Notes: a model not told the origin generated them from the letters alone. Shown: positions 27,959-31,356, counted from the stretch's first letter. The stretch: 64,000 nucleotides of DNA from Escherichia coli (GCF_041248615.1 NZ_CP158426.1); one strand, 5' to 3'. Translations and numbers: made by a program.

Positions 27959-28165
27959 TTACGGACGGGACTGTGCAATACGCGCCTGCAGCCAGGCTTC
28001 CACTTCACTTTTCAGCCAGCGGGAGCTGCGGCCGAGTTTGATGGGAGCCGGAAAGGCCCCATCCTTGATGAGCTTGTAAAACCACTTATCGGTCAGGCCG
28101 GTCAGCTGAGTGATAAACGTCATATCGACCATCTGGTCATCCATCAGCGAAACTGGGGTGGTCAT
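27959..28165 (-). CDS. alpA: AlpA-family phage transcriptional regulator (MerR-like HTH)
   Basis: 68-aa ORF; ...MTFITQLTGLTDKWFYKLIKDGAFPAPIKLGRSSRWLKSEVEAWL is the AlpA/Prophage_CP4-57_regulator pattern. Confidence 0.7.
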   Translation of the reverse strand: MTTPVSLMDDQMVDMTFITQLTGLTDKWFYKLIKDGAFPAPIKLGRSSRWLKSEVEAWLQARIAQSRP

Positions 28166-28548: not shown

Positions 28549-29340
28549 TTATTCTCTGTAATTACAAACAACAGTGATCTGATCCGGTTTTTTTACCGTT
28601 ACGGGTTTCCGGGGATCAATTTTATAGACCGGGGTAATGACCACGCCGGAATTTATGGAGAAAAGCGGGATCCAGCAATAAACGTCCGGATATTTCTGTG
28701 TCTCCGGAATACCTTTTGTGCCAGAGGCCATCAGATCTTTAACGCTCACGAAAAATGACTTCCGCAGATCAAAAAAGTACTCGTTATATATCACATCCTT
28801 TGCCAGCAGGATGACTGCATTACCAACAGCCGATTTTACAGGTGTTTCATCAGGTGGATTATCGTGATTGTATATTGTTCTTTCTATATAAATAAAACAG
28901 GCATATTTCGTCTTCTCCCCGGATAGTTGCATCTGGTATTCGCAAATGTCTTTGATATACCGACTTTCAACCCTTCCAATCATCTTATCCCGGCGATAGT
29001 GTCTTTTATGTTTCAGCGCGTACAGAACACCATTTGAACTGTCAAACTCCAGGACACTTCTGGTGAAAAGTTTGTTTTCCCAGATCTCCAGACAATACTT
29101 CTCTGCACTGACGACATTGCGTTTGTGGGGAAGATTCCGTTGATACACTCCATTTAATAAGCGTGACTGCAGTTCGCCTGCAAGTTGATAGTAACAGTTA
29201 ATGTCATTAAGGACAGGTGCTGTGGCGTTGAGTAATGTGTTGATTACCTTAGAGCGCGAAAGTTTGTGGGTATGACAGTACTCATCCACAATTCGCAGTG
29301 TCTCATCACTGGTCATATTGAAAGTTATACGTGTTGTCAT
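28549..29340 (-). CDS. hypothetical protein: N-terminal ribbon-helix-helix-like segment fused to a domain of unknown function
   Basis: 263-aa ORF in AT-rich DNA; N-terminus MTTRITFNMTSDETLRIVDEYCHTHKLSRSKVINTLL has a strand-helix-helix pattern; first gene of a co-directional string (263-aa gene, alpA, 205-aa gene). Confidence 0.55.
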   Translation of the reverse strand: MTTRITFNMTSDETLRIVDEYCHTHKLSRSKVINTLLNATAPVLNDINCYYQLAGELQSRLLNGVYQRNLPHKRNVVSAEKYCLEIWENKLFTRSVLEFDSSNGVLYALKHKRHYRRDKMIGRVESRYIKDICEYQMQLSGEKTKYACFIYIERTIYNHDNPPDETPVKSAVGNAVILLAKDVIYNEYFFDLRKSFFVSVKDLMASGTKGIPETQKYPDVYCWIPLFSINSGVVITPVYKIDPRKPVTVKKPDQITVVCNYRE

Positions 29341-29670
29341 GATGAAGTTTTCTGTTAATCATACTGGTTGATATGCATAACATTTCATAAAAAATACTGT
29401 TAATTCATATAATTGATTTTTTGACTGGTTTTATCCTCGTGTGGTGGAAAGCAGTATTACTGCCACTGTAGTCAGCATAAATCTATCACACAGAACCACC
29501 GAAAATGAAGCATTGCTCAGGGGGAAGCTGCCACTCGTATGAGTTCTCTGAACCATGATAACCAGTATTTTTCGTTTTGGGTGATTTGTTTATCGTTACA
29601 GCTACATACAGTTCATGTACCATTAAAAAATAATAAAGGTTAATTAGTATTATTTATAGAAGTATGTTTA

Positions 29671-29748
29671 TGTAATTCTACCGTGTAAATGAACCCTGTA
29701 ATTCTACCTTGTAAATACACCTTGTAACCAAGTCCTGTAGAAGTCTGT
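29671..29748. repeat. six tandem 13-bp iteron-like direct repeats (consensus TGTAAnTnnACCy)
   Basis: tgtaattctaccg / tgtaaatgaaccc / tgtaattctacct / tgtaaatacacct / tgtaaccaagtcc / tgtagaagtctgtc; tgtaattctacc occurs twice exactly. Confidence 0.5.
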
Positions 29749-30722
29749 CTCATAGAAGTATCTGTGCAGTGATATTCTCTGTAGTAGTACTTGTAACTCT
29801 GTTCTTAACTCTCTCTTCAGTAATGTAGTCCCGCAACACCTGAATATAAATCTGTAATGTTCACACACTGACTGTAACGTGCTTTGTTAAGTAATGTCTG
29901 CTATTTTTTTTCTGTTATTTTTCCTGTTGTTTTCTGTATTTTGTTGTATGGTGTAATAACTATTCTGAACCCGTCATCACCTTTATAGCTAAGAGTATGA
30001 CTTCGCCAGTGTTGATACTGTGGATAACGGTGATTAAGGAATTACTGTTAATGATCTGTTCCTGCAGCTCACCTGATGAGTTTTGGTAGTAATACGTAAA
30101 AGAGTATGCCTCATGTCATTAAAAAGTCTTCCGGAGTGTTGTTTAACCCTGTACCTCTGTTACTCATGTAGTACGTTGCGGAAAGCTACGTTAATTGTAA
30201 TATCTGGTTATGGCGTTATGCCTTCAGTATTAAAAACATCTTTTACCGGAGAAACTGGGAAGTGGAAAGGCTTTCGGGATAACGTCAGGCCATTATGACG
30301 ATATTACGTTAATCACAGTACAAGATAACGAGAGGGTAATGGAATTTTAAACCAGAGTAGTTCCACTGTTGTTCACTGGAAAAAGTGATTTCCCACGCGC
30401 GTTATAAGCTTACTCCAGAGGAGATGGAAGCCTTCAACTCTGCGGTCGATCACCGGCTGGCAGAACTGACCATGAACAAACTTTACGATCGTGTTCCCGC
30501 TTCAGTCTGGAAATATGTTACCTGATAAATGTTTCTGATGAAGTACAGTCGTCACAATGACATCACTTCAGATATTATCTGCGCTGTGATTGACTGTCAC
30601 GTATGCCGTTCTCTGTATGGTTCTGATACCCGGGTGTGGTCCCACTTTCTCTGTGGCGCCCGGGGAGTTGTGAACCTGCACGTCTTCGTGTGATAACGTT
30701 TTCTTCAAAAATTACGCCAGCG

Positions 30723-30754
30723 CTTCTTCCTGTGTTACAGAACACGAGGAAGAA
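30723..30754 (+). promoter_or_regulatory. hairpin sequestering the ribosome-binding site of the 30757 gene
   Basis: cttcttcctgtgtt-acag-aacacgaggaagaa: about 13-bp stem with one bulge; the right arm contains the GGAAG SD ending 3 nt before the ATG at 30757. Confidence 0.4.
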
Positions 30755-30756
30755 AC

Positions 30757-31356
30757 ATGAAGACTTACAACACCAATCCCGGTTACGAAATGGATCCCCA
30801 GCTCCTGACACACTTTAACCAGCATCTGGATTCATTATTCGGGGTATATTCGAAACTGTTACCGTTCAGAATGGATTTTGCTTACCGAAAAAACACCCTC
30901 AGCTACAGATGTGCCTGCAGGTACGCCATGTGCGCGGAGATACTGCGACTGATTAACGAAGTGGGAGAGAAACTGGTCGGGTATGCCTGGGTAATGGAAT
31001 ATACGGAACGTAAAGGGCTTCACATTCATTTTGTGGGCTATCTGAACGGTCAGAGCCACAGGAGTTCGTATCTGGTATCCAGATTGATGGGAGATATCTG
31101 GAGGCGGGTTACCGGGGGGGATGGTTACTACCACTGGTGCCGGTTTAATAAAAATTATCCGGTAAACATTAACCACGTCATTCACTATTCAGATCACAAA
31201 GCGGTGAATGCCTTACGCTATGCCATCAGCTACCTGGCCAAACGAGAACAGAAAGAATGTGGCATCATCCTGAAATGCAGCGGGCTTCCTGAAAAAAGTA
31301 ATCGGGGTCGACCGCGACTGGGCAGCCCCCTGCCGGAGACTTATTCTCTGGTGTAA
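30757..31356 (+). CDS. Gp2-like protein (inovirus Gp2 / YagK-YfjJ family, putative replication-initiator-like)
   Basis: 199-aa ORF; sequence pattern and context (integrase/alpA island) resemble YagK/YfjJ; assignment from memory. Confidence 0.5.
   Translation: MKTYNTNPGYEMDPQLLTHFNQHLDSLFGVYSKLLPFRMDFAYRKNTLSYRCACRYAMCAEILRLINEVGEKLVGYAWVMEYTERKGLHIHFVGYLNGQSHRSSYLVSRLMGDIWRRVTGGDGYYHWCRFNKNYPVNINHVIHYSDHKAVNALRYAISYLAKREQKECGIILKCSGLPEKSNRGRPRLGSPLPETYSLV

What the first reader, a model, noticed from the sequence alone, without database searches (positions are those of the whole stretch)
30723..30759. Hairpin occluding the ribosome-binding site of the Gp2-like gene at 30757
cttcttcctgtgtt/aacacgaggaagaa forms a stem of about 13 bp whose 3' arm contains the GGAAG Shine-Dalgarno ending 3 nt before the ATG. 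This suggests translational control of a putative replication initiator.
Basis: seen in the sequence. Interest (0 to 1): 0.4.

Follow-up and report, generated by a model that had tools for sequence, protein, structure and literature searches.

The report
Conserved hairpin hiding a ribosome-binding site
A stable stem-loop really does bury the ribosome-binding site of an uncharacterised nuclease-like ("Gp2-like") gene on an E. coli genomic island, and related genes in many other bacteria keep the same pairing with different sequences, so it is most likely a built-in brake on making this protein, which is a familiar kind of control.

Summary
Bases 30724-30736 pair with 30741-30754 (13 bp, one bulged G30746, loop ACAG; -15.2 kcal/mol). 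The 3' arm holds the Shine-Dalgarno sequence (GAGGAAG, 30746-30752), and the arm ends 2 nt before a well-supported ATG at 30757. Energy alone is unremarkable: 50 equally stable hairpins lie on this strand of the window.

The support comes from comparison. In about 20 lineages of the gene family (down to about 35% protein identity), a homologous pyrimidine block pairs with that gene's own SD or AUG, using different sequences: CUUCCU:AGGAAG, AUCCC:GGGAU, UCUCC:GGAGA, UCUCUC:GAGAGA. Each block fits its own start region much better than those of other lineages (0 of 20,000 permutations).

I read it as an mRNA leader hairpin that represses translation in cis. It is too stable to be a thermometer and is not a terminator. 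Whether it can be switched is unknown, and the transcription start is unmapped.

It lies at a fixed distance upstream of the 5' arm and is unexplained. The protein keeps the HUH and YxxxY nuclease motifs, so a DNA-level role as an origin or nick-site hairpin is not excluded. No Rfam family matches. This is a new member of a known kind, of moderate interest.

The parts
30705..30717 (+). Conserved upstream box (window TCAAAAATTACGC; family consensus T-[C/A]-A-A-A-A-N-T-N-A-C-G-C). Its function is unknown.
   Evidence: Column conservation over 22 lineage representatives: T 20/22, AAA 20/22 each, T 20/22, A 22/22. There are no gaps between the box and the 5' arm block, so the spacing is fixed: 19 nt from the invariant A to the invariant TG. 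The box shows no lineage-specific pairing with any nearby region. No consistent sigma-70-like promoter lies at this position on either strand.
30724..30736 (+). 5' arm of the hairpin (UUCUUCCUGUGUU). It contains the anti-SD CUUCCU and is homologous to the family's (A/U)UCCCAUGA block.
   Evidence: MFE and centroid structure. The block is aligned across the family. Each block pairs preferentially with its own start region.
30737..30740 (+). Tetraloop ACAG.
   Evidence: Loop length and sequence are not conserved in the family: 4 to about 25 nt.
30741..30754 (+). 3' arm (AACAC-G-AGGAAGAA) with bulged G30746. It contains the Shine-Dalgarno GAGGAAG (30746-30752).
   Evidence: The SD bases are predicted paired with probability about 0.85 from 25 to 70 C.
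30757..31356 (+). Gp2-like / YagK-YfjJ-type gene (199 aa) with conserved HUH (H89, H91) and Y155-x3-Y159..K162 motifs. The ATG is at 30757-30759.
   Evidence: ORF list. RefSeq annotation 'inovirus-type Gp2 protein' WP_000860845.1. Pfam PF23343 24.7 bits and PF11726 22.5 bits, both below their cut-offs. Invariant residues. AlphaFold model pLDDT 83. Foldseek top hits are HUH nucleases at E about 3e-3.
30702..30707 (+). Outer helix, 5' side (UCUUCA). It pairs with 30758-30763 (UGAAGA, overlapping the UG of the AUG). This helix is specific to this allele.
   Evidence: It is not conserved: other E. coli alleles read ATGCAAACT or ATGAATACT after the start.
30758..30763 (+). Outer helix, 3' side (UGAAGA).
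30376..30525 (+). Upstream Hha/YmoA-family gene in the same orientation, 231 nt upstream. This is context, not part of the conserved unit.
   Evidence: In most other lineages the upstream neighbour is a divergent gene beyond a 280-1000 nt intergenic region.

Best explanation
The leader of the Gp2-like mRNA folds into a hairpin. A conserved pyrimidine-rich anti-SD block (CUUCCU within 30724-30736) pairs with the Shine-Dalgarno sequence (AGGAAG within 30741-30754), and the stem ends 2 nt before the AUG. A 30S subunit can bind only when the stem is open. At about -15 kcal/mol the stem is almost always closed, so the gene is translated at a very low rate even when it is transcribed, including by read-through from upstream island genes.

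Shown here: the hairpin, its overlap with the SD and AUG region, and the family-wide retention of this pairing with covarying sequences.

Inferred: that the structure acts in RNA, that it lowers translation, and that low expression is selected because the product is a site-specific HUH-type nuclease. A trans-acting factor that recognises the conserved box and 5' block might open or lock the stem. That is speculation.
For: Structure:
- The hairpin is both MFE and centroid, with z = -4.1; alone it is -15.2 kcal/mol.
- The SD stays about 85% paired from 25 to 70 C.

Start codon:
- It is secure.

Family comparison:
- Leaders from about 20 lineages (33-62% protein identity, Enterobacterales and Orbus) plus two remote metagenomic lineages share one layout: box, fixed spacer, pyrimidine block, variable loop, SD or AUG.
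- The arms differ between lineages but stay complementary. Examples are CUUCCU:AGGAAG (window, Salmonella, Edaphovirga), AUCCC(AUGA):(UCAY)GGGAU, UCUCC:GGAGA, UCUCUC:GAGAGA, UAUUCCAU:AUGGAAUA, AUCCUU:AAGGAU and UUCCUA:UAGGAA.
- Columns 32, 36, 37 and 40 of the block show changes on both sides of the pair.
- The homologous block pairs with its own start region at -10.2 kcal/mol against -6.8 for other lineages, 0 of 20,000 permutations. A repeat gave -11.3 against -7.3, 0 of 5,000. Seven control region pairs gave p = 0.09-0.40.
- The 3' partner always lies between -19 and +8 of the AUG.
- Mean fold z of the 51-nt leaders is -2.2.
- The start region pairs with upstream sequence more than in shuffles in 25 of 30 leaders.

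Within E. coli:
- The hairpin is almost invariant among E. coli alleles whose flanks differ.
Against: - No transcription start is known, so it is not shown that the 5' arm is in the mRNA.
- The sense and antisense strands fold equally well relative to their own shuffles (z -2.2 against -2.1). G-U against A-C counts do not favour the sense strand. The pairing could therefore equally be read as DNA or as antisense RNA.
- The 5' block and the box are conserved in sequence beyond what pairing needs, which points to an additional or different recognition function.
- The common 62%-identity E. coli/E. albertii clade (L002, L003, L022) has lost most of the pairing and of the box, yet keeps an intact gene. 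The hairpin is therefore dispensable.
- E. coli 536 carries an unpaired A-to-C change inside the stem.
- Energy alone is not exceptional in this window.
Confidence: 0.6

Rival explanations
1. The element works in DNA. The box plus hairpin is the recognition and nick site (an origin-like site) of the HUH-type protein encoded just downstream. It would act on single-stranded or extruded DNA, as in rolling-circle replicons, IS200/IS605 ends or REP/RAYT. Its overlap with the ribosome-binding site would be secondary, or the element would have two functions.
For: - The protein keeps the HUH motif (H89, H91), Y155xxxY159..K162 and a motif-I-like strand, in Rep order.
- The Foldseek top hits are HUH nucleases, including a RAYT bound to its REP hairpin.
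- A conserved sequence box sits at a strictly fixed distance 5' of the hairpin foot. That geometry resembles IS608 and REP sites (my knowledge).
- Box and hairpin degrade together in the L002/L003 clade.
- The strand test does not favour RNA.
Against: - The 3' arm is always the SD or the AUG itself, within -19 to +8 of the start, in every lineage. A DNA site has no reason to track the start region that closely.
- Loop length varies from 4 to about 25 nt and carries no conserved loop motif.
- No second copy of the motif was found in the loci held.
- A 4.7-kb Acinetobacter plasmid that carries a distant Gp2-type gene has its own separate replication initiator.
- Family membership of the protein is below the Pfam cut-offs.
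Confidence: 0.15
2. The conserved box and 5' block are double-stranded DNA sites: an operator or unconventional promoter for a regulator such as the neighbouring AlpA-type protein, H-NS/Hha or the Gp2-like protein itself. The inverted repeat would be a dimer-binding operator over the start of the gene.
For: - Two sequence-conserved blocks sit at fixed spacing, as expected for protein or RNA-polymerase contacts.
- The gene heads a conserved gp2-like, alpA, DUF7828 zinc-ribbon gene order behind a long intergenic region.
- Cross-family conservation starts abruptly at the box.
Against: - The arm-to-arm distance varies about 5-fold between lineages, which does not fit a dimeric operator.
- The arm sequences change while complementarity is kept. 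That is the signature of a folded single strand.
- No consistent sigma-70-like hexamer pair lies at a fixed position on either strand.
- The P. aeruginosa AlpA element GGGACG (PMC9371919) does not match, and that AlpA is a different, larger protein.
Confidence: 0.1
3. The selected structure belongs to an antisense RNA transcribed from the minus strand across the start region. It would be a counter-transcript like those that control rep genes of rolling-circle plasmids or the IS10 transposase.
For: - The minus strand folds as well as the plus strand relative to shuffles.
- A promoter-like site on the minus strand lies at 30862-30834 and points towards the hairpin.
- On the minus strand the hairpin is followed by a T5 run, the complement of the box.
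Against: - The T run starts 12-13 nt after the stem, so this is not an intrinsic terminator. None was detected.
- The minus-strand promoter-like site lies in conserved coding sequence, and I did not test it in other lineages. The scan (about -110 to +90 nt around the 5' block) found no conserved-position promoter on either strand.
- There is no direct evidence for such a transcript.
Confidence: 0.07
4. The hairpin in this window is a chance or neutral inverted repeat with no function.
For: - Fifty equally stable hairpins lie on this strand of the window.
- One clade lacks the hairpin.
- Single-sided changes occur in some E. coli alleles.
Against: - Lineage-specific complementarity is kept across about 20 lineages, 0 of 20,000 permutations.
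- The controls are negative.
- Leader z-scores average -2.2.
Confidence: 0.05

Closest known systems
Fold-back inhibition of the IS10 (Tn10) and IS50 transposase mRNAs
   Same: An upstream sequence pairs with the ribosome-binding site of a mobile-element DNA-cleaving enzyme. The protein stays scarce, and read-through transcripts from outside do not express it (my knowledge of Kleckner-lab work).
   Different: In IS10 the 5' arm lies upstream of the element's own promoter, so only foreign read-through transcripts are blocked. Here the start site is unknown, and no promoter-like site was found between the arms. The gene is an HUH-type protein, not a DDE transposase.
Leader structures and counter-transcripts controlling rep genes of rolling-circle plasmids (pMV158 repB with RNA II/CopG; pT181 repC attenuation), and the Ff phage gene II leader repressed by gpV
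   Same: Initiator-type genes are kept at low level by post-transcriptional control at the leader or start region. The origin often lies just upstream of the initiator gene (my knowledge).
   Different: No antisense RNA, attenuator terminator or repressor site has been identified here. The element is on an integrative island, not a plasmid or phage. The initiator function of the protein is unproven.
RNA thermometers (fourU, ROSE)
   Same: A pyrimidine stretch pairs with the SD in a 5'-UTR hairpin.
   Different: Thermometers are marginally stable and melt at 30-42 C. This stem has 13 bp at -15 kcal/mol and is predicted to stay closed up to 70 C.
Hairpin recognition sites of HUH endonucleases (IS608 ends, REP/RAYT, circovirus and geminivirus origins)
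   Same: An HUH-type gene lies next to a hairpin, with a conserved short sequence at a fixed distance from the hairpin foot.
   Different: The hairpin's 3' arm is the gene's own SD or AUG in all lineages. The loop is not conserved. No nicking or binding data exist, and only one copy per locus was seen.
fbi/tac elements of hok-type toxin mRNAs and standby-site leaders (tisB)
   Same: Stable sequestration of the SD of a potentially harmful gene (my knowledge).
   Different: Those systems need processing or a standby site, and an antisense sRNA. None is evident here. The A-rich box upstream might serve as a standby site, but I did not test this.

Membership tests
SD-sequestering cis-acting mRNA leader hairpin | A thermodynamically favoured stem-loop in the leader | tested here: met
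   MFE and centroid hairpin at -19.3 kcal/mol in 81 nt, z = -4.1; -15.2 kcal/mol alone.
SD-sequestering cis-acting mRNA leader hairpin | The SD and/or start codon lies inside the stem | tested here: met
   GAGGAAG 30746-30752 lies in the 3' arm, and the arm ends 2 nt before the ATG. The SD pairing probability is 0.85.
SD-sequestering cis-acting mRNA leader hairpin | The pairing is conserved with compensatory change in homologues | tested here: met
   Own against other start-region duplex energy is -10.2 against -6.8 kcal/mol, 0 of 20,000 permutations. It was repeated with negative controls. Pair types per column are tabulated. The pairings were chosen by energy, so they lean towards structure.
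SD-sequestering cis-acting mRNA leader hairpin | Both arms are present in the native transcript | not testable with these tools
   There are no 5'-end data. A promoter-like site at 30549-30578 would place both arms in the transcript, but it is only a consensus match.
SD-sequestering cis-acting mRNA leader hairpin | Stem disruption raises translation and compensation restores repression | not testable with these tools
   This needs reporter fusions.
RNA thermometer (fourU/ROSE) | Marginal stability, with the SD released between about 30 and 42 C | tested here: not met
   The predicted SD pairing is unchanged (0.84-0.86) from 25 to 70 C.
Intrinsic (Rho-independent) terminator or attenuator | A G+C-rich stem immediately followed by a U tract | tested here: not met
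   No terminator-like site on either strand in 29300-31500. The stem is followed by ACAUGAAG on the plus strand. On the minus strand the T run starts 12-13 nt after the stem.
IS10-type fold-back inhibition | The native promoter lies between the two arms, so only read-through transcripts carry the 5' arm | tested here: inconclusive
   No sigma-70-like site at a conserved position relative to the blocks in 22 leaders. The loop is only 4 nt in the window, so no promoter can sit between the arms here. The true start site is unknown.
HUH-endonuclease recognition or origin hairpin | An adjacent gene encodes an HUH enzyme (HUH plus catalytic Tyr motifs) | tested here: inconclusive
HUH-endonuclease recognition or origin hairpin | A conserved cleavage motif in the loop or at a fixed offset from the hairpin | tested here: inconclusive
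   The loop is not conserved. A conserved box lies at a fixed offset 5' of the stem, but nothing shows that it is cleaved.
HUH-endonuclease recognition or origin hairpin | Sequence-specific binding and nicking of single-stranded DNA | not testable with these tools
   This needs biochemistry.
Any Rfam family | A covariance-model match | tested here: not met
   Nothing relevant at E <= 10 over 29300-31500. No leader match in 10 homologous loci at gathering thresholds.

The most novel reading that the evidence does not exclude
The conserved unit (box T[C/A]AAAANTNACGC, fixed spacer, hairpin) is the cognate single-strand recognition and nick site of the island's HUH-type Gp2-like protein, or an element with both an RNA and a DNA function. 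It would mark the replication or mobilisation origin of the widespread integrase-AlpA-Gp2-type genomic islands, and its RNA form would at the same time throttle synthesis of the nuclease.
Probability: 0.15. Interest if true: 0.7.

Novelty: new member of a known kind. Interest (0 to 1): 0.4.

Why it matters
Gp2-like (YagK/YfjJ-type) genes sit next to alpA in a very common class of integrative islands. This allele is in 745 of 5,426 complete E. coli genomes. Related islands occur across Enterobacterales and Pseudomonas (PMC12595487). I found no functional study of the family.

A conserved leader element gives a concrete handle on it:
- It predicts that the protein is kept very scarce.
- It offers simple mutations for de-repressing the protein, to find out what it does to the island (excision, replication, transfer).
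- It flags a conserved box that is a candidate binding or nick site.

The control principle itself, SD sequestration, is textbook.

Tried and rejected
1. Strand asymmetry, to tell RNA from DNA. The minus strand folds 2.6 kcal/mol better. That is a composition effect, because z-scores are equal. G-U against A-C counts (12 against 23) are dominated by two inherited mismatches. The test is uninformative.
2. RNAalifold on a plain MAFFT alignment of 26 leaders gave no consensus structure, because the 3' arms are out of register. I replaced it with the duplex-energy permutation test.
3. The box as a sigma-70 promoter. No consistent hexamer pair at a fixed position on either strand in 22 leaders. Hand inspection gave only weak -10-like readings.
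4. The box pairing with the loop, the coding region or upstream sequence. No lineage-specific signal.
5. A leader peptide starting at the ATG inside the family's 5' block. I read its length, frame and stop off the leaders by eye and they vary; it has no SD, and the ATG is absent in the window's clade. Rejected.
6. Thermometer and terminator. Rejected.
7. AlpA-binding element of P. aeruginosa (GGGACG). No match, and it belongs to a different protein type.
8. True inovirus relatives. The phage collection gave only two weak Acinetobacter hits, so no characterised origin was available for comparison.
9. A small Acinetobacter plasmid with a Gp2-type gene has its own Rep, so it says nothing about function.
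10. Population variation in E. coli. Only single-sided changes were found, with no compensatory pairs at that depth.
11. The second YagK/YfjJ gene in the window (34328-34894) has no box or hairpin.

Full report
**What is there.** The window sequence around the finding reads GCG-CTTCTTCCTGTGTT-ACAG-AACACGAGGAAGAA-AC-ATG. RNAfold of 30700-30780 gives, as both minimum-free-energy and centroid structure, a hairpin of 13 Watson-Crick pairs. It pairs 30724-30736 with 30741-30754, has one bulged G at 30746 and the loop ACAG. The energy is -19.3 kcal/mol for the 81-nt stretch, z = -4.1, and 1 of 200 shuffles does as well. The hairpin survives in a 261-nt context and is worth -15.2 kcal/mol alone.

The 3' arm contains GAGGAAG (30746-30752). 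A further 6-bp outer helix (30702-30707 with 30758-30763) encloses the UG of the AUG in this allele only.

The ATG at 30757 is secure. It is the first start after the in-frame stop at 30694. It is the RefSeq start of the 199-aa 'inovirus-type Gp2 protein' WP_000860845.1. The N-terminus MxxYNxNPxYEM is conserved among homologues.

**Chance.** On energy alone the hairpin is ordinary. Fifty separate 33-nt windows on the same strand of the 64-kb window fold at least as well. The case for function has to come from comparison.

**Context.**
- The region is a tRNA-Phe-associated E. coli island. The tRNA-Phe gene is at 43752-43827, and capsule (kps) genes lie at the left end of the window.
- Upstream, on the opposite strand, is an AlpA-family gene (27959-28165). 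On the same strand is an Hha/YmoA-family gene (30376-30525).
- Downstream are an IS256-type (Mutator-family) transposase gene (31517-32725) and two DUF7828 zinc-ribbon genes.
- The 55 nt around the hairpin occur in 745 of 5,426 complete E. coli genomes, including 536 and Nissle 1917.
- In other genera the usual order is a divergent gene, a 280-1000-nt intergenic region, the gp2-like gene, alpA, then the zinc-ribbon gene(s).

**The protein.**
- Pfam matches Rep_ORF2-G2P (24.7 bits) and YagK_YfjJ_C (22.5 bits), both below their cut-offs. NCBIfam gives nothing.
- In a 45-sequence alignment H89 and H91 (LHIHF), Y159, K162, R38 and D40 are invariant, and Y155 is nearly invariant. This is the HUH plus YxxxY pattern, in Rep order. 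That reading rests on my knowledge of the HUH superfamily.
- I found no functional study of the family. It is mentioned as a core gene of integrase-AlpA islands in Pseudomonas (PMC12595487). [quoted passage not shown]
- 'Replication initiator' therefore remains an inference.

**Comparative anatomy of the leader.** I collected 19 loci from representative genomes, 2 viral-collection loci, 10 loci through homologous proteins, several E. coli alleles and 2 remote metagenomic lineages.

Lined up on the start codon, almost all show one architecture:
1. a conserved box, T-[C/A]-AAAA-N-T-N-A-C-G-C;
2. about 10 unconserved nucleotides of fixed length;
3. a pyrimidine-rich block, consensus (A/U)UCCCAUGA, which is UUCCUGUGU in the window;
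4. a loop of 4 to about 25 nt with no conserved sequence;
5. a purine-rich partner that is the SD or, in several lineages, the AUG itself, followed by 0-8 nt to the start.

The arms differ between lineages but stay complementary:
- CUUCCU:AGGAAG in the window, Salmonella L031 and Edaphovirga L004;
- AUCCCAUGAA:UUCAUGGGAU in Pectobacterium L009, where the AUG is in the stem;
- AUCCC..UGA:UCA..GGGAU in Trabulsiella, Mixta, Atlantibacter and Hafnia;
- UCUCUC:GAGAGA in Enterobacter L010;
- UCUCC:GGAGA in Orbus L023;
- UAUUCCAU:AUGGAAUA in Serratia L028;
- AUCCUU:AAGGAU in L042 and UUCCUA:UAGGAA in L040.

**Tests.**
1. I took the 5' block by homology (alignment columns, not by fit) and computed its best duplex with the -20..+8 region of every lineage. 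Own partners average -10.2 kcal/mol and foreign partners -6.8. None of 20,000 permutations reaches the observed mean.
2. A repeat with 18 lineages gave -11.3 against -7.3, 0 of 5,000. The same test was negative (p 0.09-0.40) for box against start region, box against coding region, box against upstream sequence, block against coding region, block against upstream sequence and block against box.
3. The chosen 3' partners always lie between -19 and +8 of the AUG. Several block columns show changes on both sides: column 32 has A-U 9 and U-A 7; column 36 has C-G 13, U-A 5 and A-U 2; column 37 has A-U 15, G-C 2, U-G 2 and U-A 1. These pairings were picked by energy and so lean towards structure.
4. 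The 51-nt leaders have a mean z of -2.2 against shuffles. The start region pairs with upstream sequence more than in shuffles in 25 of 30 leaders.
5. The lineages are related, so these numbers are not strict probabilities. Relatedness makes the own-against-other test conservative, not liberal.

**What it most likely does.** In the mRNA, the anti-SD block closes over the SD or AUG and keeps translation of the gene low. The predicted stem stays closed from 25 to 70 C, so it is not a thermometer. There is no U tract and no terminator-like site. No Rfam family matches the window or ten homologous loci.

I put 0.6 on cis-acting translational repression. Whether it is a constant brake or is opened by a factor is not known.

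**What does not fit neatly.**
- The box and the 5' block are conserved in sequence (invariant A; invariant TG) and in spacing far beyond what a stem needs. The box pairs with nothing nearby and is not a consistent sigma-70-type promoter on either strand.
- The strand test cannot tell sense RNA from antisense RNA or DNA.
- Because the adjacent gene looks like an HUH nuclease, and these enzymes typically recognise a hairpin plus a nearby short motif, the unit could be that protein's DNA site, alone or in addition (0.15).
- Against this, the 3' arm coincides with the start region in every lineage, and the loop varies freely.
- An operator or promoter reading (0.1) is weakened by the 5-fold variation in arm spacing. 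An antisense-RNA reading (0.07) has no direct support.
- The abundant 62%-identity E. coli/E. albertii clade has lost most of both box and pairing while keeping the gene. E. coli 536 has one unpaired change in the stem. The element is therefore not indispensable.

**Verdict.** The hairpin is real and conserved, and it most probably represses translation. This is a new example of a well-known mechanism, attached to an uncharacterised but very widespread island gene, with an unexplained conserved box that deserves an experiment.

Noticed in passing
window 30705-30717 (and homologous positions in L004-L042): A conserved box T-[C/A]-AAAA-N-T-N-A-C-G-C lies at a strictly fixed distance upstream of the hairpin's 5' arm across the gene family. 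It pairs with nothing nearby and is not a consistent sigma-70 promoter. Its function is unexplained.
   Followed up: partly
window 2224-2239 (- strand), inside the 675-aa ORF 1551-3578 (looks like kpsC by my reading; not tested): The 16-mer AAAAATTACGCCAGCG of the box recurs exactly inside this ORF of the capsule gene region (codons E-K-L-R-Q-R). By my estimate an exact 16-mer is expected about 3e-5 times in 128 kb. No hairpin or Gp2-like gene follows it, so it is probably coincidence.
   Followed up: no
window 31517-32725: A Mutator/IS256-family transposase gene (Pfam PF00872, E 3e-119) is inserted between the Gp2-like gene and the zinc-ribbon genes. It is absent from the otherwise identical locus in strain ST3 (L001), where the gap is 372 nt.
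   Followed up: partly
window 30376-30525: The Hha/YmoA-family gene upstream is short (49 aa) and matches only positions 24-71 of the 72-residue Hha model, below its cut-off. In E. coli 536 the corresponding gene is annotated at 213 nt (about 70 aa). This copy may be N-terminally truncated.
   Followed up: no
window 30629-30664: A G+C-rich hairpin (CCCGGGUG...CGCCCGGG) lies in the intergenic region. The stretch containing it is present in the alleles that carry the hha-like gene upstream and is replaced by other sequence in other E. coli alleles. There is no U tract after it.
   Followed up: no
window 34328-34894: A second YagK/YfjJ-domain gene (188 aa, PF11726 E 8e-10) lies on the same island. 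It has a different N-terminus and neither the box nor an SD-occluding hairpin upstream.
   Followed up: partly
5' block of most homologous leaders (e.g. L011 about 2963-2965, L009, L012, L023, L025): Most family members have an ATG inside the 5' arm (CCCATGA). Read by eye, it opens short reading frames of very variable length, and some stop just before or overlap the main ATG. It has no SD and is absent in the window's clade.
   Followed up: partly
L002, L003, L022 (E. coli / E. albertii clade, 62% protein identity): In this abundant clade both the box and the SD pairing are largely degraded together, while the gene stays intact. This suggests that the two elements are functionally linked but dispensable.
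   Followed up: partly
L014 4134-4209: A group II intron domain (Rfam RF00029, 47 bits) lies downstream of the Serratia marcescens Gp2-like locus.
   Followed up: no
window 42292-43554 (-) and 43752-43827 (-): A 420-aa ORF sits next to tRNA-Phe. It is probably the island integrase at the pheV-type attachment site. I did not test it.
   Followed up: no
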